From Trichoplax sp. H2 (taxonomy: Eukaryota): a DNA stretch of 64,000 bases. The notes beneath the pieces are model-generated. The model searched no databases, was not told the origin of the DNA, and worked only from the letters and a program-made list of their open reading frames with translations. Made by a program: the position numbers and the translations under genes. The stretch covers positions 434,001-498,000 of the forward strand of contig NOWV01000013.1 of NCBI GenBank assembly GCA_003344405.1. Reading direction: 5' to 3'. Shown in pieces: positions 21,336-54,060 of the stretch (positions within the stretch are counted from its first letter, which is position 1; every line of letters starts with the position of its first letter).

Positions 21336-24300
21336 ATGTGGCGAGCTGGTGTGGATACCAAATTTTCGACTACAGAAAGCCCTGAAGATGACGACTGGGA
21401 AACTGATCCTGATTTCGTAGTAAGTATTGTATATTAGTTATGATAGTTATACTATAAATTATGGAATTGACATTAGCACAGTGACTGTTGTGTAAGAAAG
21501 TTGCAATTCCATTGCGCTAAAACTGCCCGGTACTGTACGCATGAACGATGGTAAGTAGTTATGATGAAGTAGACGACTAGAGAAGAGCGACAATTCTTAC
21601 ACAGTACTTTCATCACTGGATGCAATTCGACTTCGAAAACTTGAGTATTATACTTGTCTAATGTATAGTTTGCAATGCCATTCTTAAAGTATGAATCCTA
21701 CTCATTTATACGTATACTGTTACGCAGTGTACAGAGATGATGGAGTTGTTCTACAAGTTGAAGCATTGTTATTCACTTCCTGGGTTACAACATGGTTAGA
21801 CCTGAGGATATTATGATGCATACGAGTTTATCCACTAGTCTATCATCCATCAATTTGTAGACGGTACTGGGATAAAAATTGCCCTTTTTGATCAATAAAG
21901 TGATGAAGACTTCATGTTAGTCAGTAGCAGTACAGAGAGTCATTACTCTATAGTGATTTGTTTTGAAACTAAACTGGGATTATGTGTACAATTTCCCATC
22001 TCTATTATTGACTGTACACGTACGAGTATATTCTAATCAATGGGAGTAGTAATAAAGTGATCAAGAGTACTGTACAGCTAGTCGGCTTTTCATAGTTGTC
22101 CCTTGAAACATTATACTACATTACATCTTAGTCATTGGGAGTACCAATAGTTACTTTTCTTTACTTATAAGTATACATTGATACTAAATTGGGATTATGT
22201 GTAAGAATTAGGCGTACTGTATACTCGGTCAGCAAGGACACAAAGTATCACGAGCACTTACTCTGTACAGTCAATCGGATTTGTATATAAATGGTCAGCC
22301 TTTCATAACTACAGTACGTTTTGTTACTAAATCAGACATAGACTACGTGTAGAACTTTCTATTGCCTACTGTACCTTACGTTTGTTTATATGCTAGTCAA
22401 GATAAGTGCAGTAGCCAGCTTGTGATAGTTATACATTTTGATATCAAGCTGTACGTCTACTATGTAATTTCCTGTTCCCCACCACAATATATACCAAGCC
22501 TTCCAATTAATATGTTCAGTTAGGGTTAGGGCAATACTACCGGTTTAGGAAGCGATGTTGTCTTCTAATAACTATAATGCGACAAGTATTAGCTGCAAAG
22601 GCTTGCACTAACTAAATACTGAAGTTAACGCAATACTGAAGTAGCAAGTCGAGCTCTAAGGCGTACATAGTTGTAGATGTAGCCATATTTTGCGGTGTTG
22701 CATTCGTAGATCTGTCAAAATTAATACCATTGCTAAGTACGAAGTCGAAAAGGTACTTGCCCAAGACTTGGCTACAATTTACAGTATTATAATGTACAGT
22801 TGCCAAAGTTAGTACCATTATTAAGTGACAAGTCGAATAGGTACCTACTACAGAACATAACAAAATACTAGGTTATACAGTTGCAGATCCGGCCACTATT
22901 TCCAGTCTTATAAATTTACAATATTGTTCCACTCATTGCTTAGACTTTACTACCGCTGGCTCGTTTTACATTATTAACACATTACGATCAAGTACTTCTA
23001 TCATACAAACTAATTTTTTCTCCCCTGTTTATTTTTACACTTTCTAGAACGATGTTACTGAGGAAGAGCAGCGGTTCGGATCCAAAACAGTCGAAGGTTC
23101 TGGTTCACAGCGAGTCCTCGAGTGAGTTCTACTCTTACATACAAAGCACAGTATTTTTTATAATACAGTACGTTTCCCAAACTACCAGATGAATGAACCT
23201 AAGACTGACATTTAATTGTTTACTTGCAACAAACCGCCATGTATAGTATTGATCTTCAACGTGTCTTTGATATAACATGAAATAGTTAACAGAATCATCA
23301 TGTTATCTTCCTAAGTAATTTATCTTTAAATGATAGAAGAATATTGTCAAAACAAGATTTAACTTTGTCATTACCGTATATTGTATTTCATGTATTTGCA
23401 TGTGATATTCCCTGAAACACACTTTACTCATAATAGCGTAGATCAACTTAACATCTTAAGGTGCTCTACTTTAGTATAAAGCTATATTAAAAATTATGTT
23501 ATTTTCTTTACAGCATGAATAAACTGAGAGATGATGTTAAGGACTCTGATAAGAAGAGTAAGGAGGGTAAGTTATTCCATGTAACGTTAATAATGTCGAT
23601 AGGGTGATAAAATTTTTCATTCTTAAACTTTAAACTTTTTTAAATATCTATCTTTCATTTTATACATACATGTATATAGCTCAAGGGTATCCTGAAAGAC
23701 TATCAAATCCATCTTACTCTTTTGATATAATACTTACACCTACTCACATATTTCCATTGGAGCAAAGTTATTTGTAGTTAATGTACTCAATATCTAGTTT
23801 GAAACTGCTCAAACTACTACTATATATGAAAGGTTTTTAAAACTTGTACTTGCTGGTTGTAACTTCGAATTTTAATAGGAAACAGAATTCTGCCAATATT
23901 CATGTGATCAGTTCTTGTACAGGCGTACCGGTAGCTAGTTTCGTTATATTTTCATTATCCTGCGGCACTAAATTTTTTATTCTAGTTGTTTTGCCTTTCT
24001 TTTGAGACTGGAGTTAATTCATAAATAATAGTTTACAAAAGTTGTCAGCTTAACTGAAGTATATTAGACCTAAATACAGCTACGGATACGGCGGACAATT
24101 TGGCGTACAAAAGGACCGTATGGACAAGGTAATACGTTGTTTATATTATTATATATTATCATTAATTGTAAGTTTATTTAAATCATTGTAGGTATCGGAT
24201 ATGTTGTCGTAATGAAAGCAATTAGTTTAGGCTGCTTAATTTGATAACACAAACTATCTTATCTAATAATTTCTATAGCTATTCACTTTATCATATTGTA

Positions 24301-27300: not shown

Positions 27301-28980
27301 CAGAAACACAAACTACACACAAAGGTTATAGATTTATAACTTACCCTTTCAATAAATAATTATATTTTGCGATAATTCGTTACTGTACTATAATTGTTAA
27401 TAATCAAGCTATATAGTAGTAAAATTGTGTAATGCTTTTAATATATTTAAACCAAAGTGTTAATCTAACATCGTAATGCAGTTAAAAATCTTACCGCCTT
27501 CCATGCGAGCTGATTACTTTATAAAATTCCATACCCATAGATATTCGATATCTTTAGGTTATAAACGCTTGTAGCTATTTTGTCATATAATATTTATCTT
27601 CGTTTGATCATTAACAGTTGATATAGTCCCTGGATCTTTAAGTAATTTACGCAAACGTTTTGAAAAGAATGCGGTAAGTACATAAAATGGTAATAAAAGT
27701 ACTTCATGATCTATCTTTCCCACTTACAAATGCATACTTTACTCCGCGATTGGATATTTACGGTCATTTAGCAGGTAATCGTTTTCGATCACAAAAAACA
27801 TACACAACTAGGCTAACAATACAGTAACATGCGTGATATTGTGACATAATACCAATCTAAGAACACAATGGAGCATGCGTTGGATTATTACTACTGAGTT
27901 TTAAGTGAATTCGCAAATAGCTAGCACAATTATTAGCAACTCTAGAGCAGAAAAGTTTATTGAAGGTCGTTTAAGCAGCAACAAACGTACGGAACTATCC
28001 AGTCTCTGAATAGCGTAAATGTATAGTACTGTTTGAAGCCTCGCTAATTATATGCCTTCGTGCAGTACTTGCTTTATCTGAATAGTGTAATGGCTTTTGC
28101 CTAGACCGCAGCATCTGAAGCCTATTCTTTTGTAGCAGCTGATTTAACATCGTATCAATACTGATGATGAAAGTAAATTTTTAAATCGTCCTTATACCAT
28201 TTGAATTTAAGGAAGAAGAAGTCAAAACGGAAGCTGAAAGATCCATAGAATTATCTAACAATCCCGAAGCCACTCAGGCCGAAGTTAGAACTTAGTCGTT
28301 AGATTATTTCATCTTCTTTTATCTGTATACATCATTCAAATCGGGCTAAATGATTGCATTTTGGAATAATAGACGTCAACATCTGTAAATGAACAAAACG
28401 AGGCTCCAGAATGTGATCAGCATCAAATAGACCAACAGCAAGAACTACAAGCAACTCCTGAACAACCTCCTTCCAACGTTAGTGACGTAATGAAAATACA
28501 TGTTACCTACTTTTTTATCAACTTATTATCTTATAATCTAAAATGCTAAGAACTTAAACATACGCGTATAGCTATAGAAAACCATCCTAACGCCAGATTA
28601 CTACCTAATATTCACTTTATCAGGAATCAGATGAAATGGTTAAACCCCAAGAGGCTGCAGCAGATGCTAAAATAACAGCAAAAGTTATTTACGACTACTC
28701 AGCAGGTCTGCTTAATAATGATATCTAACTCTTAATACAGTACTTTAGTATATACAAATGTTAAGATATATATGTATATATATTGTAAACGTTCTTGCAT
28801 AGACAACTAACAATAATATAATTACTGATTAATTATATGCAAGTAGCTGATGACGACGAAATCTCATTAGTCATTGGAGAGACCGTCTCTAACATTTCAG
28901 TAATAGACGAAGGATGGTGGTATGGAGAATGCAACGGCAAAAAAGGAATGTTTCCGGCAAATTATGTTGAAACTATCTAA
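21336..28980 (+). CDS. CTTN: Cortactin (NTA domain, about 7.5 cortactin repeats, helical region, SH3)
   Basis: Exons: 21336-21419 (MWRAG...[12 protein letters not shown], Arp2/3-binding DDW), 23048-23121, 23514-23566, [23680-23686 microexon], 24068-24128, 24441-24551; 55/56-nt pairs 24638-24692, 24979-25034, 25111-25165, 25405-25460, 25539-25593, 25843-25898, 26030-26084, 26325-26380, 26602-26656, 26807-26862, 26931-26985, 27081-27136; then 27270-27324, 27618-27673, 28212-28283, 28373-28477, 28624-28705, 28847-28980 (TAA). Repeats read [21 protein letters not shown]3 reads [17 protein letters not shown]...IDEGWWYG...GMFPANYV. Confidence 0.97.
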
Positions 28981-30084: not shown

Positions 30085-33000
30085 TCAACCAATAAAATTC
30101 TGCACAATAAGCTCAATTGGTCTGCGACAAATTGGGCATTTTTTCCGTCTACGACGTAACTTTTCCGCACAATTGTAACAACAAACTTGATGACCAATAC
30201 CTTCATTTATATGAATAATACTTGCCGATCTCGGCTCAGAAAGGCAAATCATGCACATTCCATCAACAGTACTCAATCTCTTGTTTGACGCCGACTTGTA
30301 CCTTTTAAGCTGACGTGATATTTTGCAATGTTTCTTCTTCCGTTGCTCCTTCTTTAATCTATTGTTGCGATTATTACTTCTAACAGGTGAATCAATGTGA
30401 CTCTCCGAGCCAGAACTATCTGATTCTTGCCTTAAACTAAAATCTATACTACTATTGGCAGATGTCGAAAGCTCCAAGTCATCATCTTGAGGTATCAAAG
30501 ATAACGTACCGTCATTGGTATCGTCTACAGCAATATCGTCATCACTAGGTAACCAATTTTCACGTAATTTCCAACAAAATGCACAATTACGAGCAATTGG
30601 ATTATTTAACTGTTGGCAATACAAACACTTCCAGTGATCTTTTTCACCAATCTCTGGATCATCATCTCCAATGTTGTCGGCTGAATTTCTTTCATCCTTG
30701 ATGCTCGATATTACTTCGACAACATCCGAAGAAGAACAATTTGAATATCCTGAATTTGGAGCATCGGTTTCACTATCTGTTACTGGTTCCAATTCAAAAG
30801 TTGGATAATTAGTGTCCTCCAATGACCAGTCATTTTCTTCTGGTTCCGAAGCTGTACTGGTCTCATACCCAACGACAGAATCGAGCTGCTGCTGTACTTG
30901 AGCTTTTAATTTTTCTAATACACTAAATAATGTGGGTTTACTACCCTTGGCTACTTCTGTACTATCAGGAATCTCTTCTTTTGTTAATGAATTGTCATAG
31001 TGAGCCTGAGAATTCTGTCTTGATCTCCAGTCAACATTTATGACACTTTGTTCTAAAAAATAAAAAATAATGTCAACAAAATAGCGCTTTCATATCTGTA
31101 TCTAATGAACAAATAATTCTTCAGGTCCAGAATTACTGTATAATAGATAATTCATAAGCGAATTACAAGTTAAGCAAAGTACAGATAAAATTTACATAAA
31201 AGTAATTGAGAAGCGAAACAATAACTGCTTACAACAAGTGTAAAATTGTAAATAAATTCTAAGGATATAAGCATTGTAATTGTGTAACAATAAATACAGG
31301 AAGCGTTATAAAACATCTAAAGTACTGTATAACAGCAGACAAAGGGTTTTTTCGTAAATTTCAGTAGTCTACATATACAACTTCCAATACAGTAGCTTAT
31401 ATCAAGGCAAATTAATAATTATAATACTTGTACTTGTACGATACACAATCATAGCAATGCATTCTGTAACCATTACATAGACTACATAAATTACAAGAAT
31501 GGCATAAAGCTTAAATCAACGCTATACGGTAATATGGAGGGCATAATAAAATTAATCTTGAAATAATGTCTCTCTGTGTATCACTGCTTATCATTATTAA
31601 GAGCGCACTACATGATCACGAGAATGGATAATGATGATTGCACCTAGTACTGCGATGTTACTTTTTCTGAAAACGCAACAAACTTGAACTACGTGTATAA
31701 CGTGACTGATTAAATTTATTTTCTAGAGTAAAAGCTGCTCTACACTTTGTCTCAATATACCGGCAACATTACTAATCACATAAATTACCGTTCGCAACCG
31801 GAACAACCTCTAGATGCATTTTTAGTCGATCCCATAAATTGGCTACCGGAAATTGATCACAAGAAAGTAATTTTTCCAAAGGATCTCCTTTACAATCCAC
31901 ATAATCCGCTCTAAGAGGATTACACAACTTACGGCTAGATATATAATCAATCAGATATTCCATTACCTGCAGATATCAAAATAAGTTATGATTTAATATA
32001 ATTTTTTTTTAAATTCTATTTAATGATTACTGAAGCATTTTTTATCTGGCTAATCAGTGAATTTACTATTATTCGTCAGCAATTTTATGCAAATTCTGAT
32101 TTCTTAATCTATTGCCGTTCAATACACTCGATGTATGATGAATAATATTAAGTAATTAATTGAACCAACTGACCTGTAGAGCTGTAAGTTCTTTACCATT
32201 GACATTTTCTGGAGGCAGAAATTGCATCAATTCGGCATTAGGCTTGACCACCTATAAAAATTGAAAATAGTGTTAAACTTACGAGTACGATACTTACAAA
32301 ATGAATGAGTTAGAGTGCAGTTTAAATTTCACATATTAAAGAAGCACAAAGAAATTGGCATTAACATTGATAGTATTGATTTATGCTATCAGTCAAGATA
32401 TAACAATTGATTAATTTCGAAGGTGAGGTAAAGCCATGAACTATTAAAATTCTATTTATTACTAGATATGACTGCTAAGACCGTAACCTTCGAATGCAGA
32501 ATGCTGATATTTATAACAGCATATTGAAAATTTTGAATGCCTAATGTAGTCTGAAGTAATGAAAGCCATCCACTATATGTAACGGCGTAGAGCAGCTAAG
32601 AGGTCATGCAATAATAGAATCAATGAATTTTGTAGTCATCCTTGGTTTACACGTATACTCGTGACACTTCTATAATACTCTTAATCATATTCTCTATGAT
32701 CATTTTCTATTACATAGTTATCTACTGTACTGTACTGTACAATATCAGGTATTGTTGTTCGGCAAGGAAGGACTTGCGCGAATAACCATACTAATTTGTT
32801 GAACCGGAGTCAAGGCGCATTTACAATGGAGTCGGTGTATGCGATTTATTTTCTTTTTAAGTTTTTCATAATACTATTATTGTCAACTCACTACTTTATC
32901 GACATCAATGAGCTTATTTCAAATGTTGTCCTGTACCATTCGTAGTTTTCCTACTACTGTATTGAAGGATAGCACTATCAAAAGTTCCAATCTACTGTAG

Positions 33001-33309
33001 GTGATTGGCTCAAGCTGACAGACAGACTCGTGGTCATCTTGACTCTTGGTGCAAATATGCGATATTTATTGCACGGTGACATTAACAATTTTCGAAACTT
33101 CTTTCTATCTATGTAACAATTTCATTTTCATCAAAGTAAAGGTGTAGAGTACTTACAAGACGGTCACCATTATAACTGAAAGGATCTCTATCAGAAATGA
33201 CAATGCGATTCTTTTTTATTTCCTCGTTCAATTCTCTGCTTCCATTATCATCCATCTTCTGGTGAAAATTGTCGTTGCATGGAATCGTTGCACTATCACA
33301 ACTTGCCAT
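30085..33309 (-). CDS. MDM2: E3 ubiquitin ligase Mdm2 (single MDM2/MDM4 pro-orthologue), about 458 aa
   Basis: Exons 33309-33157, 32251-32174, 31966-31789, 31052-30085. SWIB/p53-binding domain VVKPNAELMQFL...VMEYLIDYISSRKL...VDCKGDPLEKLL; acidic region; RanBP2-type Zn finger WKCLYCQQLNNPIARNCAFCWKLR; C2H2C4 RING CMIC...H...H...CCYNC...CPIC with a 13-residue tail. Confidence 0.97.
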
Positions 33310-33940
33310 TGGTTGGTTTCTTGAATTAATTGATTTGTCTGTACAGCTTTTCAAGTTAACCGATCCAATACCACTCTGGCTAATTACACCTTTCAATTCT
33401 ATCTATCTTGACGTTTGTAATAACTCTATACGCTAAAAAATAATACGTCCACTCGTCCACAAAACGACACTGTACAACTTATCTACTCTATCGATATTTT
33501 TCTCTATTCCACTAGTATCTAGCTTAACCAGTCTCAATTCGAGATTTTTTTGGTTGAATTTTTATAACATTACTAGAACATCATTCATACTTATAACTTC
33601 ATTTGCTGCTATCGTCTCCATCAATTTTAATCCAGCTGTTGAAGCCATCTTGATCAAGGAGGATTTCTTCCCTTTTCTTTCTTTGCTCCCAGCAATTGAA
33701 TCCAATAATAACTTGGATCGCAGTGAATTCTATATCAATATGTACCGTATCCAACTAGAATAGGGTACACATTCCAATACAAGTCAATCAGAAAATTAAT
33801 TTAGGAATTGCTGCTATTTGGTTCAAATTGTCAATCCGTTTCTATGGAGTTCTGCGTGTAAATGACTCGCTTCCACTTTGAATCCTGTAGCTGGCTTCAG
33901 TGGAACTGGTTGATTGCTTTCGTATACGATTTGATATATC

Positions 33941-34041
33941 GTACAATACGGTACTGTACGGTACTGCACGGTACTGTACGGTATGGTCTGGTTCGGTCTG
34001 GTTCGGTGTGGTACGGTACGGCGCGGTACGGTACAGCACGG
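33941..34041. repeat. Degenerate pentanucleotide array (GTACG/GTACT/GTCTG/GTTCG) upstream of the MDM2 CDS
   Basis: About 20 consecutive 5-mers read directly. This explains the spurious overlapping ORFs at 33842-34108. Confidence 0.9.
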
Positions 34042-34521
34042 TGATCGCCATGGCTAATGACTGTCTGACGATAGCGGGATAGGAGTCAGTCCTAGATAGG
34101 ACTCTCATTGGGTCGATTGGTAGAAACCGGCCAATAACAGTACTGTGACTTCAAACTGAGTCAACACTCTATGGAGTAATAGGAGAACTATCTTGTCCGA
34201 TCAAGGATAATAACAATCCACTTGACTCACGACCATTTTCTATTATTTGCTTATTTTTACACGATTATTTTTTTTTTATTTTTTGTTATACTGTATAACC
34301 GTAATAAGAGTAAACACAGCCAAATTTTATGGAGTGAGTTTACAGCAACTTTTGACTGAGATAATCGATTGAAAGGAAATTAATCCCACCCATCTTCTTG
34401 AACCCCTTCACAATTTTAATCCATCGACTCACATGATGTCAAATGAGTCTAGAAATATAGATTGCATAATCGGTAGAATCTGAGATGCAACGATATTGCA
34501 GGCTAGTTGCCATTCCAATAC

Positions 34522-34541
34522 GGGCTTGCACGAGCATGTCT
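34522..34541. promoter_or_regulatory. Candidate p53-family response element, zero spacer
   Basis: GGGCTTGCAC GAGCATGTCT matches RRRCWWGYYY twice at 19 of 20 positions with both CWWG cores intact. It lies 1.2 kb 5' of the MDM2 ATG. Confidence 0.7.
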
Positions 34542-34779
34542 GCTGGCTATCTATCCTAGTCAACAGATTGCTTGTCCAACATCATTTCCCTGCAAATGCT
34601 TACATAGAGATCTTTTCTCGACAGTTACTGACTGCCCATCGAGCGCTACCCTAGTACAATAGTACACAAGAAGCAAGAAGTATGAGGGAATGGACAGTGA
34701 AACAGCAATAGTATGCATCGCCATTGCACTAGTTTAAGGCGCAAAAGTCCGATGCAAAGCAAAGGTGCCAGCGGAATCT

Positions 34780-35000
34780 GTACATACCTGCCCGCTGGAA
34801 ACTGATTTTGATTGGGTAAAAAAAAGCGATGTTATGAGAGGAATTTGTTATTCTCGCGATTCGATTGGTCCATTTTCTTCGCGCATACTCAATGTTGATT
34901 CATCACGCAGGCGTCAAAGAACTACTACAGTACAATACAGTCAAGCGCACAGTACAAGTACTTATGTACTGTACACTGTAAACTGTAAAGTACAGGACAG
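34780..35000 (-). promoter_or_regulatory. Probable upstream (constitutive) MDM2 promoter and first non-coding exon
   Basis: CpG-rich patch with two CCAAT boxes on the minus strand, TCTCGCGA, an E2F-like TTCGCGC, CAGTA pentamers, and a strong minus-strand donor CAG|GTATGT at 34788/34787. Confidence 0.5.
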
Positions 35001-36351
35001 GTCGGGGGTCTGCTGATAGAAGAAGATGCCAACTATAAATGGAAGACCTTCAAGTCGGCAATACTGTAGATACCAAGTATCAAAATTTTTTTAATTTTGC
35101 TGTGCATCTTCGCTAATATGAATCATATTGGTAAATTGCATTTGCAGTTAGAGCTTGAAAGTACGGTGCTGTACACAGTTTAGTGCCGAAACAACTAGAA
35201 TTTACAAAAGCAGCTATGAGCATCTGTAGACTAATACCATGGACTACTAGATGCACCTGTAATGGAGTAGTCCATGGCTTCATGCTAATATTGTACATTT
35301 GAAAAGCGACAGGTCTGCTGTCCGTCTGCTAGACTTCTTCACAGTTTCTCTCAAGTGATTCCTGCCATGGACTACTACAGCAAACCCATACCACGGATGT
35401 TACGGATGTAACGCTGTTAGAATACGCGTATATACAATAATTAGTCTATCGACTACAGAGTTCAGCTGCCGTATTGCCCTAAATGATATCTTTAAATTAA
35501 ATTCTTCAGAAATTTACGGTCTGTCCAACCATTTTACAAGTCACGTCATAATAATCGTCTAATGAACGGCAACCAGAAATGAAAAATAGATACGAGATTA
35601 CTACAGTATTGACTAGTACAGCAGTGAATGATTGACAATTTCACAACGAAATCGACATCTGTCCATGGTATACGAGTTACAGTACAAGTTGACAAGTAAT
35701 TTGCAATATCTTCCACTCTAAAACTGGTAATTTACCATATTCCTTTATTAATTATACGCATATTAATAATTGCTATTGCGTTGACAGTCAGTCAAATTGA
35801 ATAAGGATTAGCCTATAAACAAATTCATCTATAAGCACTAACTTTTACCCAAACTTGGAATAATTTGTATAAACAGTTACATCCTAATTAGTTTTGTACA
35901 AAACTGCAATATAGTTGAAAATAAAGTCAATTAATTATAATTACATACTTATAATATATATAGTACATTACTGCAGTAGTCACCGTAATATATAGCACAG
36001 CAGAAGACGTTCAAATGATAGAAAAGTGTGCGTATATAGAATAGTAGCTTACCCAGCCGACATATGCGCATTAGAAATGGCATTTACAAGGTATAAGATT
36101 GCTAATGGTAATTTAAATGACAATTAAACCTTTCTACAGAAGGATTTACTTACTTTAACAATATCAGATATAAAAGATAGCTGACTCATGTGCATTTCAT
36201 ATACTATACGTAGATACGACTCCAATCAAAATGATCTAAAATACGAAGTCAATTATTCGTCTGAAACAGTAACGAATAACCGCTGGATAATTAGCTAGAA
36301 TTATACGTTCATTTTAAAAGATCAATAGTCGGCATTCTTTTCATGATAGCA

Positions 36352-39300
36352 TTATAATCTCCATGATTTCTTAATAACAGCATAAAAAATATCATCGTCT
36401 AGACCAAATGCTAATCCAATATAGTAAAGTAGAAAATCCTACAGGAAGATATTCAGAAGTTAATAAAAGAGAGAAAAACAAGCCCTCCATACCCTTACTG
36501 TGGAAAGATACAGTAGACGTATATGCTGCATTATAATTATTGACAGTACATGTGGCCTGTACTATAGAGATCCTGAAAATATTGTATTACAGCATAGTTA
36601 TTCTATCAGTATATAGGCATCCAAAATATCTAGTTCGATTGATTAAAAGATATTGCGGATTAAAGGCATTCTACTCCGATAGAATACTAAATACCTCCTA
36701 AATGAAATTCCGTAAATAATGATACCTACCCAAAAGTAAACTCTTCCATGTGCTATACTATCACCAAAGGATTCTATAAATTGTACCGCGTCTGTATGTG
36801 GCGAAATGTAATCTTCGATTGGAGAAAAATCACAATAAAATATAATTATAAAAAAAGTAGCAATATAGCTCAAACTATTAAAAGATCATTTTACTAGTGC
36901 ACAATAGTATTTGATAGTAATACATGAATAACATTACAGTACTGCAAAATGCCCAAATAAATAAAATGCATCTATTTCAGCCTATCCTACTTTAATAGGA
37001 TGCTTTTCTGGTAACTTATTCTAATTTTATACTGTCACTTCATACTTATTTTGTACAATACCGTTGTTTTTATTAGATACTTTAATTTCATTGCTTTACT
37101 GTCTATTAAATGTAAGACCTGATTAATCAGCAATCTTACCTGGTATATTTGTTAACATATTAGTCGGAAAGGTATAAAATTTCTTGATTTCAAATATATT
37201 AACGACACCTTGCTTGCTTGAATCTAGTTTCCGGAAAGCCTACAATTGCAAAATTAGAAGGAAGAAATAATTTAAATTCAAAATTACCTTATTAATAACT
37301 GTGCCATTTTTTCAATGCTTATTCTTAATTAACTTACTAGTGTATAGTAAGATCTTTTTTATCAAATTTACTTGATCTAACATTAGATAATAAGATCTCA
37401 TTGCCATATGATTGAAAACTTTCAATTATATTCCTTTCATTTAAAAAAACTGTCTTTGAATAGCCTAAGCTACTATACCGTCAAAAGCATAAACTTCCTC
37501 GGCATAGCCCTTAGTATACATGCCGGCTAAAATTTACTGAATATGAATAACATTATTACCGCTTGCTGCAACTTTACATTTTATACTGAAATATTATTCT
37601 TAAAAATGTATATATCGGCATATGCATCAATTTTGATACAGCTAATGCTTTAATATACGTATATGCAAATATGTACCACTGAAATTGCATAAGTAGAACA
37701 GGTTATAGGAGTGTATTTAGCAACTAACTAACTCTATAATTTCATACCTTTCGTATCAATGAATGTTTAGCCTCTCCAATTTCACCAACCAATAGTTGCA
37801 TGAAAAAGGAATAATCTGCGTGGGTGCTTTTCTCTATATCTACTTCATACCATAAAATCTCAAAATCCTAACAAAATTAATATTTGGATATTTCTTGTTA
37901 CATGTATTGATATTTGATATATTAAAAATAATGAATATTCTCTTCTCAGTTCCATTCAACATCATCTCATTATTGTAATTGTAAGTTATCATAAAAAGTC
38001 TATTCGCTTATAGCTACGCAGCGGTGTGAGAATGTATTCGATAAGCGAACCTTGTCGATGATATCTATGTGATATCGCTTCAGAGCAAGTTTAAATTGAT
38101 TTTTGTCTAAAGTGCAAGTAGATTGGCGATCTAGAGTTCTTAGATACTGTCCCAACCCAATTACAGTCTTGATGCCTCGTCGTTTTATTTCTTTCCGAAT
38201 GCTGTCTTTAATTTTAAATTACAAAAGTAAGCATACGAGTAAGTTCAGATGTAAATTACCTTCGAGGATAATAAATTACAAAATGGATAAATAAGTCTAT
38301 TATGATTATGAGTACCACGCTGGATCATAAAATATACAATTTCGAATCATTTACGTCATAAAATTTCCTTTACAGATATACTAAGATATTTTACCTTGAA
38401 TTGCTAGTAAATTAGCAGCATGAATATCATTTTCTACATCCTCTTTTACACTTTCTTTAACACTGTAACGTACCAAAATTTAAAGATATCGTAGTTAAAA
38501 TACACATAACGTGCACCTCAGATTATTCCATTTCTCTTACGTTATCAACTACGGCAATAACTTTAATCTTATGTAAAAAATTTTATGATACGTGATATAA
38601 AGAATAGCAATTAGAAATATATACAAGTCGATACTCACAGAGCCGCATCTCTGGCATCCTCATCTACATTTGTAATTCGAAGGATTAAAAACTTTTTGGC
38701 TGATAAAGACTTTGGCAGTGTTGTTTTATTATTGGTTTCAAAAATTAAATTATTTCCCTAAATTAAATCAATATAAAATGTGTATGAAAGTCAATACCAG
38801 TTTTAGTTTTAGAAGTTATATCCTTTCACTTCATGTCAATTGCATTCAATGAAGACTTAATATCGAACCCCTCTCTAACACCGATGTCAGCCTACTCTTA
38901 GAAGCCAAACAAGTAAAGTGATACACTTGAGATATCCTCTTGCAGTACATAATTAAATACCCGTACCCAATACGATATAAAATATGAACGAGAAAAACTT
39001 GTGGCATTCTCCGTATGTGCACGCATTTTCTCACCGTTTGAATATCTTGTAAAGATATCCTTTTGCCCTGCTTTAATCCATAGAAATGGTTGTAGATATC
39101 ACGTTGAATTAACGGTAACGCTGTTGATCTATACATATTATTCATTGTTATATAAGTTTTTTAGAAGATGCACCTTCAAGTGCTCAGTTAGCATAGTAGC
39201 TATTGGCTGTTAACATAAGTAATATTTCATATAAACGTAAAAGCCACACTTAGTCTTAAATGTGGCCATACACCACTTCCAAGCGATCACAACTAGACTT

Positions 39301-46428: not shown

Positions 46429-54060
<7,632 letters not shown>

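What the first reader, a model, noticed from the sequence alone, without database searches (positions are those of the whole stretch)
34500..34788. p53 response element in putative MDM2 intron 1: a vertebrate-like P1/P2 feedback promoter in an early-branching animal
Seen: GGGCTTGCAC-GAGCATGTCT (34522-34541) matches the p53 consensus at 19/20 with no spacer. Weaker half-sites flank it (AGGCTAGTTG 34500, ATCCTAGTCA 34553, TTGCTTGTCC 34568). It lies between a strong minus-strand donor (34787) of a CpG/CCAAT-rich upstream promoter and a second CCAAT-containing patch (34087-34135) ahead of the ATG exon (acceptor about 33432). My rough estimate is a few percent chance of such a match anywhere in 64 kb at this base composition, and it falls at MDM2. 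Established: mammalian MDM2 has a constitutive P1 promoter and a p53-inducible P2 promoter with response elements in intron 1. Inference: the transcriptional arm of the p53-MDM2 negative-feedback loop, not only the protein interaction, may predate bilaterians.
Basis: partly seen in the sequence, partly recalled or inferred. Interest (0 to 1): 0.8.

Follow-up and report, generated by a model that had tools for sequence, protein, structure and literature searches.

The report
Strong p53 site upstream placozoan MDM2
In Trichoplax, one of the simplest animals, a near-perfect binding site for the tumour suppressor p53 lies just upstream of the gene for its inhibitor MDM2 and probably explains why that gene is switched on by radiation, but the proposed vertebrate-like two-promoter layout is not shown.

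Summary
The site is real. It has 19/20 consensus matches, both cores intact and no spacer, and lies 1,212-1,231 bp upstream of the ATG of Trichoplax MDM2. The chance of such a match there is about 0.1-0.3%, although the genome holds 130 equally good matches (control 104). The idea is not new: Siau 2016 proposed p53-to-Mdm2 feedback in Trichoplax from three weaker sites nearer the ATG, and Fortunato 2021 showed MDM2 mRNA up 10-13x two hours after X-rays with p53 mRNA flat. I found no paper naming this element. Added support: the genome's p53 keeps its main DNA-contact residues, and 3 of 7 promoter regions of X-ray-induced repair genes carry paired p53-like sites versus 2 of 204 control tiles. 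The 'intron 1, P1/P2' layout is unproven. RNA contigs from 4 of 4 runs cross the proposed 33432 acceptor unspliced, so the ATG exon reaches at least 33886. The upstream promoter rests on sequence features and a divergent spliced RNA. Conservation in other species could not be tested. The scan's earlier notes held nothing similar. Verdict: probably a functional p53 element (about 0.7); new member of a known kind.

The parts
34522..34541 (.). Full p53-type response element: two half-sites, no spacer, 1 mismatch, cores CTTG and CATG; 1,212-1,231 bp upstream of the MDM2 ATG
   Evidence: single-copy, not in a repeat
34500..34509 (.). Flanking half-site, 1 mismatch, 12 bp from the full site; overlaps a weak RFX X-box-like stretch at 34506-34519
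   Evidence: X-box consensus recalled
34553..34577 (.). Two weak half-sites (34553, 3 mismatches; 34568, 2 mismatches)
34779..34790 (-). Strong 5' splice site, first intron base 34787; candidate end of a short upstream (P1-like) exon; use not shown
   Evidence: no joint
34809..34870 (-). Distal promoter-like patch: two NF-Y-like CCAAT boxes (34811, 34864), 53 bp apart
34920..35000 (.). GTAC-rich tract found at several other places in the genome; similar tracts lie ahead of MGM101 and LIG4 and upstream of RAD52
35001..35306 (+).
34105..34135 (-). Proximal promoter-like patch: two minus-strand NF-Y-like boxes (34107, 34116) and one plus-strand CCAAT (34131)
33940..34045 (.). GTAC/GTTC tandem-type tract; holds Siau's TXRe320 and a TXRe350-like stretch
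33766..33793 (-). Siau's TXRe540 element (exact match): one intact core only, and inside the transcribed leader
33157..33886 (-). ATG-bearing exon as assembled: unspliced from at least 33886 to the donor after 33157; ATG at 33310; 8 upstream ATGs in 33433-33886 (longest uORF 28 codons), none in 33311-33432
33432..33449 (-). AG acceptor-like site (first exon base 33432) inside the first exon; read through in all 4 runs laid; at most an alternative acceptor
32174..32251 (-). MDM2 coding exon (start of SWIB domain)
31789..31966 (-). MDM2 coding exon (SWIB domain)
30085..31052 (-). MDM2 last coding exon: acidic region, zinc finger, RING
   Evidence: (loose end at 31789 continues here)

Best explanation
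The 20-mer is the working p53 response element of Trichoplax MDM2. After DNA damage the p53-family protein is activated without more p53 mRNA (flat mRNA: shown in print; activation: inferred). A tetramer binds the two abutting half-sites, perhaps helped by the half-site 12 bp away (inferred; binding to a consensus element shown in vitro in print). It raises MDM2 transcription about tenfold within 2 h (induction shown in print; dependence on p53 and on this site inferred). The transcript that can be seen starts between about 33890 and 34110, behind the proximal CCAAT boxes, so the site acts from roughly 400-650 bp upstream of that start. A second, distal start ending at the 34787 donor is about as likely as not; if it is used, the site lies in its first intron. 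MDM2 then limits p53 (degradation shown in heterologous cells; direct binding disputed), which fits the decay of the induction after 2 h. The same p53 code probably serves some repair genes (a photolyase pair, LIG4, MGM101).
For: Rarity at this place: 0.13-0.33%. Within 2.5 kb of the start, where productive p53 elements mostly lie (PMC7498329). The genome's p53 keeps the residues aligned to human S241, R248, R273, C275, A276, C277 and R280; R283 is Ser; a K120 equivalent sits in a small exon read by eye (their contact roles are recalled). Trichoplax p53 binds a consensus element and upstream TaMdm2 sequences in vitro (PMC5039725). MDM2 is up 10.5, 12.3 and 13.0-fold at 2 h in 3 of 3 replicates, TP53 0.89-1.16 (recomputed from S5 Data of PMC8635375). 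3 of 7 promoter regions of X-ray-induced repair genes hold 2 or more core-intact sites with up to 3 mismatches, against 2 of 204 control tiles (p=0.0002; without the photolyase region that prompted the cut-off, 2 of 6, p=0.004); 6 sites were seen against 0.41 expected from shuffles. RNA contigs of three studies end at 33796, 33852 and 33886 with no loose end listed (a weak hint, as no DNA run was laid beside them).
Against: No binding, reporter or in vivo test of this element exists. Conservation could not be tested: no other placozoan or cnidarian MDM2 promoter was obtained. Such matches are not enriched genome-wide (130 vs 104). Near 9 other top sites, no known p53 target family was seen (4 loci had a Pfam hit near or over cut-off plus one faint hit). 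4 of 7 induced promoter regions (RAD52, LIG3, POLL, AlkD pair) have no site. At the stricter 2-mismatch level the enrichment without the photolyases is 1 of 6 vs 1 of 204, p=0.056. A 2-mismatch site also lies at window 22753, ahead of a gene with no known link to p53. Trichoplax p53 did not activate reporters in human cells. MDM2 is not among the FDR-significant genes of Fortunato's Table 1. Purified Trichoplax p53TAD and MDM2 SWIB showed no measurable binding (PMC10303687), which weakens the return arm of the loop.
Confidence: 0.7

Rival explanations
1. Full vertebrate-like layout (a sub-case of the best explanation): a constitutive distal P1 with a short exon ending at 34787, and a p53-inducible proximal P2, with the element in intron 1.
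For: Strong donor with 3-5% chance. Two same-strand NF-Y-like pairs against 0 in 340 kb of control. The order GTAC tract, CCAAT, start is the same as at MGM101. A divergent spliced RNA suggests that the distal patch is active. An unspliced mRNA reaching 33886 is what a proximal start would give.
Against: The 33432 acceptor is read through in 4 of 4 runs. The proximal form is well covered in runs not known to be damage-treated, and it carries 8 upstream ATGs, whereas mammalian P2 gives the uORF-free, efficiently translated leader (PMC2567066).
Confidence: 0.3
2. Inverted layout (a sub-case): the proximal start is the basal one and gives a long, uORF-braked leader. p53, bound about 250 bp inside the first intron of the distal start, switches on a spliced 34787-to-33432 form with no upstream ATG, which raises MDM2 protein more than mRNA.
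For: 0 ATGs in 33311-33432 against 8 in 33433-33886. Strong donor and a T-rich acceptor. In run X7 the first-exon contig has depth 90.6 against 169.1 downstream, which two forms would give, but so would a 5' decline.
Against: No joint was seen, and contig depth is one figure per contig, so it cannot separate the forms.
Confidence: 0.15
3. Chance match. The site is one of about 130 neutral near-consensus 20-mers, and MDM2 induction uses other elements (such as TXRe540) or a p53-independent route.
For: No genome-wide enrichment. Conservation untested. TXRe540 did bind Trichoplax p53 about 30-fold over control and supported human p53 reporter activity. Mammalian P2 can work without p53.
Against: 0.1-0.3% chance of such a site at this one gene, for which it was expected beforehand. 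TXRe540 has one intact core and forms no full site with up to 3 mismatches. Paired sites at other induced genes.
Confidence: 0.15
4. The patch is functional but is read by another factor (RFX-like, through the X-box-like stretch at 34506-34519) or serves the divergent plus-strand RNA more than MDM2; or p53 binds there but no negative loop closes because MDM2 does not control p53 in the animal.
For: X-box-like match, 11 of 14 to a recalled consensus. Divergent spliced RNA about 480 bp away. No measurable p53TAD-SWIB affinity.
Against: The X-box match is weak and separate from the 20-mer. The divergent RNA has depth 2.9 in one run against 65 for MDM2. TaMdm2 pulled down and degraded Trichoplax p53 in cells.
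Confidence: 0.15

Closest known systems
Mammalian MDM2 P2 promoter and the p53-MDM2 feedback loop (PMC2567066, PMC4012731; passages read)
   Same: p53-type element upstream of the MDM2 coding sequence, beside a proximal start; fast, transient induction after irradiation with p53 mRNA unchanged; a candidate upstream start with a non-coding first exon.
   Different: One full site plus loose half-sites, not two full sites. About 400-650 bp from the proximal start. The proximal exon runs unspliced into the ATG (no separate exon 2). The uORFs lie on the proximal leader, not on the distal one. No P1 transcript shown. No sequence homology can be claimed.
TXRe320, TXRe350, TXRe540 of Trichoplax Mdm2 (Siau 2016, PMC5039725; abstract, Results, oligo list and passages read; Figure 3 not seen)
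   Same: Same gene and same hypothesis: p53 elements upstream of TaMdm2 as evidence for the feedback loop.
   Different: Different sequences. TXRe540 maps to 33766-33793 with one intact core, inside the transcribed leader; TXRe320 and a TXRe350-like stretch map to the GTAC tract. Their numbers fit positions counted within a 1-kb upstream window (325, 347, 517-544), so the site at -1,212 probably lay just outside the region searched (inference).
X-ray response of Trichoplax adhaerens (Fortunato 2021, PMC8635375; passages, one section, S1 and S3 Tables and S5 Data read)
   Same: MDM2 (TriadG54791, this gene) and DNA-repair genes are induced 2 h after X-rays.
   Different: In the parts read, the paper names no cis-element and reads MDM2 induction as a brake on p53, not as p53 output. 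Its primers lie in coding exons and cannot tell promoters apart.
Drosophila p53-Corp feedback (PMC4521751; search listing and start of abstract only)
   Same: A p53-linked negative feedback loop in an invertebrate.
   Different: Corp is not an MDM2 orthologue. It shows that such loops can arise anew.

Membership tests
p53 response element | Two RRRCWWGYYY half-sites with intact cores, no or short spacer | tested here: met
   19/20, spacer 0, both cores intact
p53 response element | Within about 2.5 kb of the target's start or in intron 1 | tested here: met
   636 bp beyond the longest RNA contig end (33886) and 1.2 kb from the ATG; criterion
p53 response element | A cognate p53-family protein with canonical DNA-contact residues in the genome | tested here: met
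   One p53 locus found; contact residues kept except R283 to Ser
p53 response element | Bound by p53 and needed for induction | not testable with these tools
   Only indirect: consensus binding in vitro, X-ray induction
p53 response element | Conserved in related species | tested here: inconclusive
   No orthologous promoter DNA obtained
MDM2 gene family | N-terminal SWIB domain, acidic region, zinc finger, C-terminal RING | tested here: met
   (SWIB 24 bits on one exon, just under the 25-bit cut-off; PF02201 is listed for the full protein P0001)
Vertebrate MDM2 P1/P2 dual promoter | Upstream non-coding exon 1 spliced to the ATG exon | tested here: inconclusive
   Strong donor present; no joint in contigs, which can drop short or rare branches
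Vertebrate MDM2 P1/P2 dual promoter | Proximal (P2) transcript has its own non-coding exon 2 spliced to the ATG exon | tested here: not met
   Unspliced across 33432 in 4 of 4 runs; continuous to 33796-33886 in 3
Vertebrate MDM2 P1/P2 dual promoter | Two full p53 elements in intron 1 | tested here: not met
   One full spacer-less site plus half-sites
Vertebrate MDM2 P1/P2 dual promoter | uORFs on the P1 leader, efficient P2 leader | tested here: not met
   8 upstream ATGs on the proximal leader, 0 downstream of 33432; mammalian state
Vertebrate MDM2 P1/P2 dual promoter | P1 constitutive, P2 damage-inducible | not testable with these tools
   Published qPCR primers are in coding exons; only contigs were offered
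p53-MDM2 negative feedback loop | MDM2 binds and degrades p53 | not tested
   Literature is split: pull-down and degradation in cells against no FP or ITC binding

The most novel reading that the evidence does not exclude
Placozoans run a p53 transcriptional programme with the vertebrate DNA code. This element drives MDM2 through a promoter switch (either P1/P2-like, or inverted, with p53 turning on a uORF-free spliced leader), and paired p53 sites drive a photolyase pair, LIG4 and MGM101. p53-controlled DNA repair plus MDM2 feedback would then be the ancestral circuit of placozoans and bilaterians and part of the reason for Trichoplax's radiation resistance.
Probability: 0.3. Interest if true: 0.78.

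Novelty: new member of a known kind. Interest (0 to 1): 0.5.

Why it matters
[quoted passage not shown] The one direct attempt in a non-bilaterian that I found used weak sites and left confirmation open. This element is a far better match than those tested, links two papers that stand apart (in vitro binding and X-ray induction), and makes the question testable with one oligo and one 5'RACE. If the repair-gene sites hold as well, they give a first outline of a p53 regulon in a placozoan.

Tried and rejected
(1) Conservation through metagenomes: 50 MDM-like loci were mostly mRNAs or last exons; none gave a usable promoter, and of the 7 of 50 loci with a spacer-less site at up to 3 mismatches none was shown to lie upstream of an MDM coding sequence. 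A 70%-identical relative (P0002) came without DNA. (2) Run X18 (another organism label) covered only exons and a 39-bp low-identity piece. (3) The bins 34437-34919 had no depth in any of 4 runs and 34115-34436 none in 3 of 4. This is a hole in contigs and proves nothing about P1; short 5' exons can be clipped as tips by such assemblers (recalled). Depth at 33954-34114 and 34920-35080 comes from repeat matches and was disregarded. (4) A repeat or transposon origin of the site was rejected: BLAST hits lie only in the flanking tracts. (5) The CpG-island argument was rejected. (6) Neighbours of 9 other top sites (126 ORFs) gave no p53-target pattern; only the first 50 of 130 sites were listed and 9 loci were examined. 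(7) The Ku search found nothing and was uninformative. POLB was not located. The locus first taken for POLB (C608) is MUS81 and was moved from the induced set to the controls. Only 7 promoter regions (9 genes) were examined against a list of 74 induced genes; identity was verified by accession only for the two photolyases, the rest by family or similarity; the paper lists one alkylation-repair gene and I did not determine which of the pair it is; RAD52's start may lie further upstream. Three control loci (third photolyase, MUS81-like, LIG1-like) had no site. (8) The post hoc class pattern (4 sites vs 5 control) was not used as evidence. (9) Whether the GTAC tracts are the Mutator-derived promoter motif of PMC12221973 could not be told: the motif letters were not in the passages read. 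(10) Literature searches that named no paper with this element or with p53 control of photolyases; subscription journals are mostly not covered. The Siau supplement held as text had no TXRe entry, and figures were not visible. (11) Nutlin as a test: it does not block the Trichoplax pair in vitro.

Full report
Verdict. It is probably functional (about 0.7). The vertebrate-like two-promoter layout is possible but not shown (about 0.3). The general idea was already in print, based on weaker sites.

The gene. The minus-strand gene has a SWIB exon and a C-terminal RING, and its last exon is about 100% identical to Trichoplax adhaerens TRIADDRAFT_54791, the gene studied as TaMdm2. Proteins of this genome are labelled Trichoplax sp. 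H2. The ATG is at 33310; its first residues equal those in the published cloning primer. RNA contigs give the introns 32252-33156 and 31967-32173 and the link to the last exon at 31052.

The site. The 20-mer at 34522-34541 matches the consensus at 19 of 20 positions, with both cores intact and no spacer. It is the only such match in the window at up to 2 mismatches. 5 of 100 window shuffles contain one. The genome has 130 matches with up to 1 mismatch against 104 for the reversed pattern (p=0.10) and 3 perfect matches against 5. Most such matches are therefore noise, and the argument rests on position. The chance for a 1.5-2.4 kb stretch upstream of MDM2 is 0.2-0.3% from the genome rate and 0.13-0.18% from shuffles with intact cores required. 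The flanking half-sites are as described, but a triple of good half-sites also occurs at 53197 and twice in 340 kb of control DNA, so they add little. The site is single-copy.

The reader of the site. The genome has one p53 locus. Its exons align to human p53 and keep S241, R248, R273, C275, A276, C277 and R280; R283 is Ser, and a K120 equivalent lies in a small exon that I read by eye (contact roles recalled). Siau 2016 showed that Trichoplax p53 binds a consensus element in vitro but does not activate reporters in human cells.

Prior work. Siau 2016 (PMC5039725; abstract, Results, oligo list and passages read) tested three sequences upstream of TaMdm2 and offered them as evidence for the feedback loop, to be confirmed in the animal. 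Their best one, TXRe540, maps exactly to 33766-33793. It has one intact core and lies inside the transcribed leader. TXRe320 and a TXRe350-like stretch map to the GTAC tract. Their numbers fit positions inside a 1-kb upstream window, while the present site is at -1,212 to -1,231, so it was probably just outside their search (inference). Fortunato 2021 (PMC8635375; passages, one section and three supplements read) reports MDM2 up after X-rays with TP53 flat. From their Ct values I get 10.5, 12.3 and 13.0-fold at 2 h in 3 of 3 replicates, and TP53 0.89-1.16. MDM2 is not in their FDR-significant table. Nine searches gave no paper naming this element; most subscription papers are outside the library. 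Against the loop's return arm, purified Trichoplax p53TAD and MDM2 showed no measurable binding (PMC10303687, passages), although pull-down and degradation worked in cells.

Promoter layout. I laid 4 of 21 listed runs; one is on record as RNA and three are guessed to be RNA, and all four show spliced joints. All 4 cross the proposed acceptor at 33432 unspliced, in contigs joined to the coding exons. Three extend to 33796, 33852 and 33886 with no loose end listed, and the fourth to 33469. So the ATG exon, as assembled, has a leader of at least 576 nt and 33432 is at most an alternative acceptor. This fits a start near the proximal CCAAT boxes (34105-34135), roughly 400-650 bp downstream of the site. 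No joint from the 34787 donor was seen, but contigs drop short or rare branches, so this is no refutation. The distal patch has real promoter features. The donor is one of 2 such 9-mers in the window, with a 3-5% chance upstream. Same-strand pairs of NF-Y-like boxes occur at both patches and 0 times in 340 kb of control (pattern set after seeing them). The order GTAC tract, CCAAT, start recurs at MGM101. One run has a low-depth plus-strand spliced RNA leaving the patch in the other direction (intron 35054-35147). 'CpG-rich' carries no weight, since the window has no CpG depletion. The leaders differ from mammals, where P1 carries the uORFs and P2 is translated efficiently (PMC2567066, passages): here the proximal leader has 8 upstream ATGs and a 34787-to-33432 form would have none in the shared part. 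An inverted switch is thus as testable as the vertebrate one.

Does Trichoplax use this code elsewhere? I located repair genes of families that Fortunato lists as X-ray-induced and scanned about 1.5 kb upstream for core-intact sites (spacer 0-1). The divergent photolyase pair, confirmed as TRIADDRAFT_51590 and 51591, has two sites with 2 mismatches each in its shared 1.4 kb. MGM101 has one with 2 and one with 3 mismatches, and LIG4 has two with 3. RAD52, LIG3, POLL and the AlkD pair have none. That is 3 of 7 regions with two or more sites against 2 of 204 control tiles (p=0.0002), and 6 sites against 0.41 expected from shuffles. The cut-off was chosen after the photolyase region was seen. Without that region the count is 2 of 6 (p=0.004), and at the 2-mismatch level 1 of 6 against 1 of 204 (p=0.056). 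The controls are arbitrary tiles, not promoters. One locus first taken for POLB is MUS81 and was dropped from the induced set. Neighbours of 9 other top genome-wide sites showed no target pattern. The result is suggestive support, not proof.

Mechanism, shown and inferred. Shown here: the site, its rarity at this place, the p53 residues, the unspliced first exon. Shown in print: consensus binding in vitro, X-ray induction, degradation in heterologous cells. Inferred: binding at this site in the animal, p53 dependence of the induction, the distal start, and closure of the loop. Ancestry is also inferred. Fewer than 13% of p53 binding sites are shared even between mouse and human (PMC7498329, passages), so a shared link may be old or may have arisen twice, and I obtained no orthologous promoter from any other species.

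Score. It works like the mammalian P2 element. It meets the sequence tests for a p53 element, but it fails three defining features of the vertebrate dual promoter (a spliced exon 2, two full elements, the uORF pattern). It is a new member of a known kind. Interest is 0.5: the hypothesis is published and partly supported, but this element, and the possible repair regulon, make an acknowledged open question directly testable. The scan's earlier notes held nothing that bears on it.

Noticed in passing
G000:C830:99116-100498 (L080:3117-4499): The shared promoter of the X-ray-induced photolyases TRIADDRAFT_51590 and 51591 holds two core-intact p53-like sites with 2 mismatches each (100025, 100175). 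A third, near-duplicate photolyase at 105355 has none upstream.
   Followed up: partly
G000:C1018:273708 and 273788 (L085); G000:C574:363426 and 363805 (L084): Paired p53-like sites 470-550 bp upstream of LIG4, and at MGM101 one just before the ATG and one 400 bp upstream. The LIG4 site shares a 10-base stretch with the MDM2 flanking half-site at 34500.
   Followed up: partly
window 35001-35306, + strand: Low-depth spliced RNA (intron 35054-35147) running away from MDM2, with only a 12-codon ORF; candidate divergent non-coding transcript, seen in 1 of 4 runs.
   Followed up: partly
window 33562-33648, - strand: 28-codon upstream ORF among 8 upstream ATGs in the MDM2 leader; possible translational brake.
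   Followed up: no
window 33940-34045 and 34920-35000; also L079, L084, L085: GTAC-rich tracts recur next to promoters; possibly the placozoan promoter-hub motif tied to Mutator TIRs (PMC12221973), not verified.
   Followed up: partly
window 22753-22773: Core-intact p53-like site with 2 mismatches and spacer 1, ahead of a plus-strand gene with repeats and an SH3 end (cortactin-like by recall; SH3 confirmed at 28822-28977).
   Followed up: no
L113:4846 and 5060 (G000:C2, about 304846 and 305060): A control stretch holds a pair of p53-like sites (3 and 2 mismatches) in a GTAC-rich, promoter-like region; the gene was not identified and could be another target.
   Followed up: no
L079 (G000:C157:101175): The RAD52 ATG directly follows an acceptor-like site, so a non-coding first exon is likely; this suggests that 5' UTR introns occur in this genome.
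   Followed up: no
window 35714-36439, - strand: The long 3' part of the upstream gene's RNA ends near 35714-35768, with low-depth pieces down to about 35370; this bounds the MDM2 upstream region at about 2.4 kb from the ATG.
   Followed up: no
L083 (G000:C242:357475-362689): Divergent duplicate pair of AlkD-like DNA alkylation repair genes, with no p53-like site between them.
   Followed up: partly
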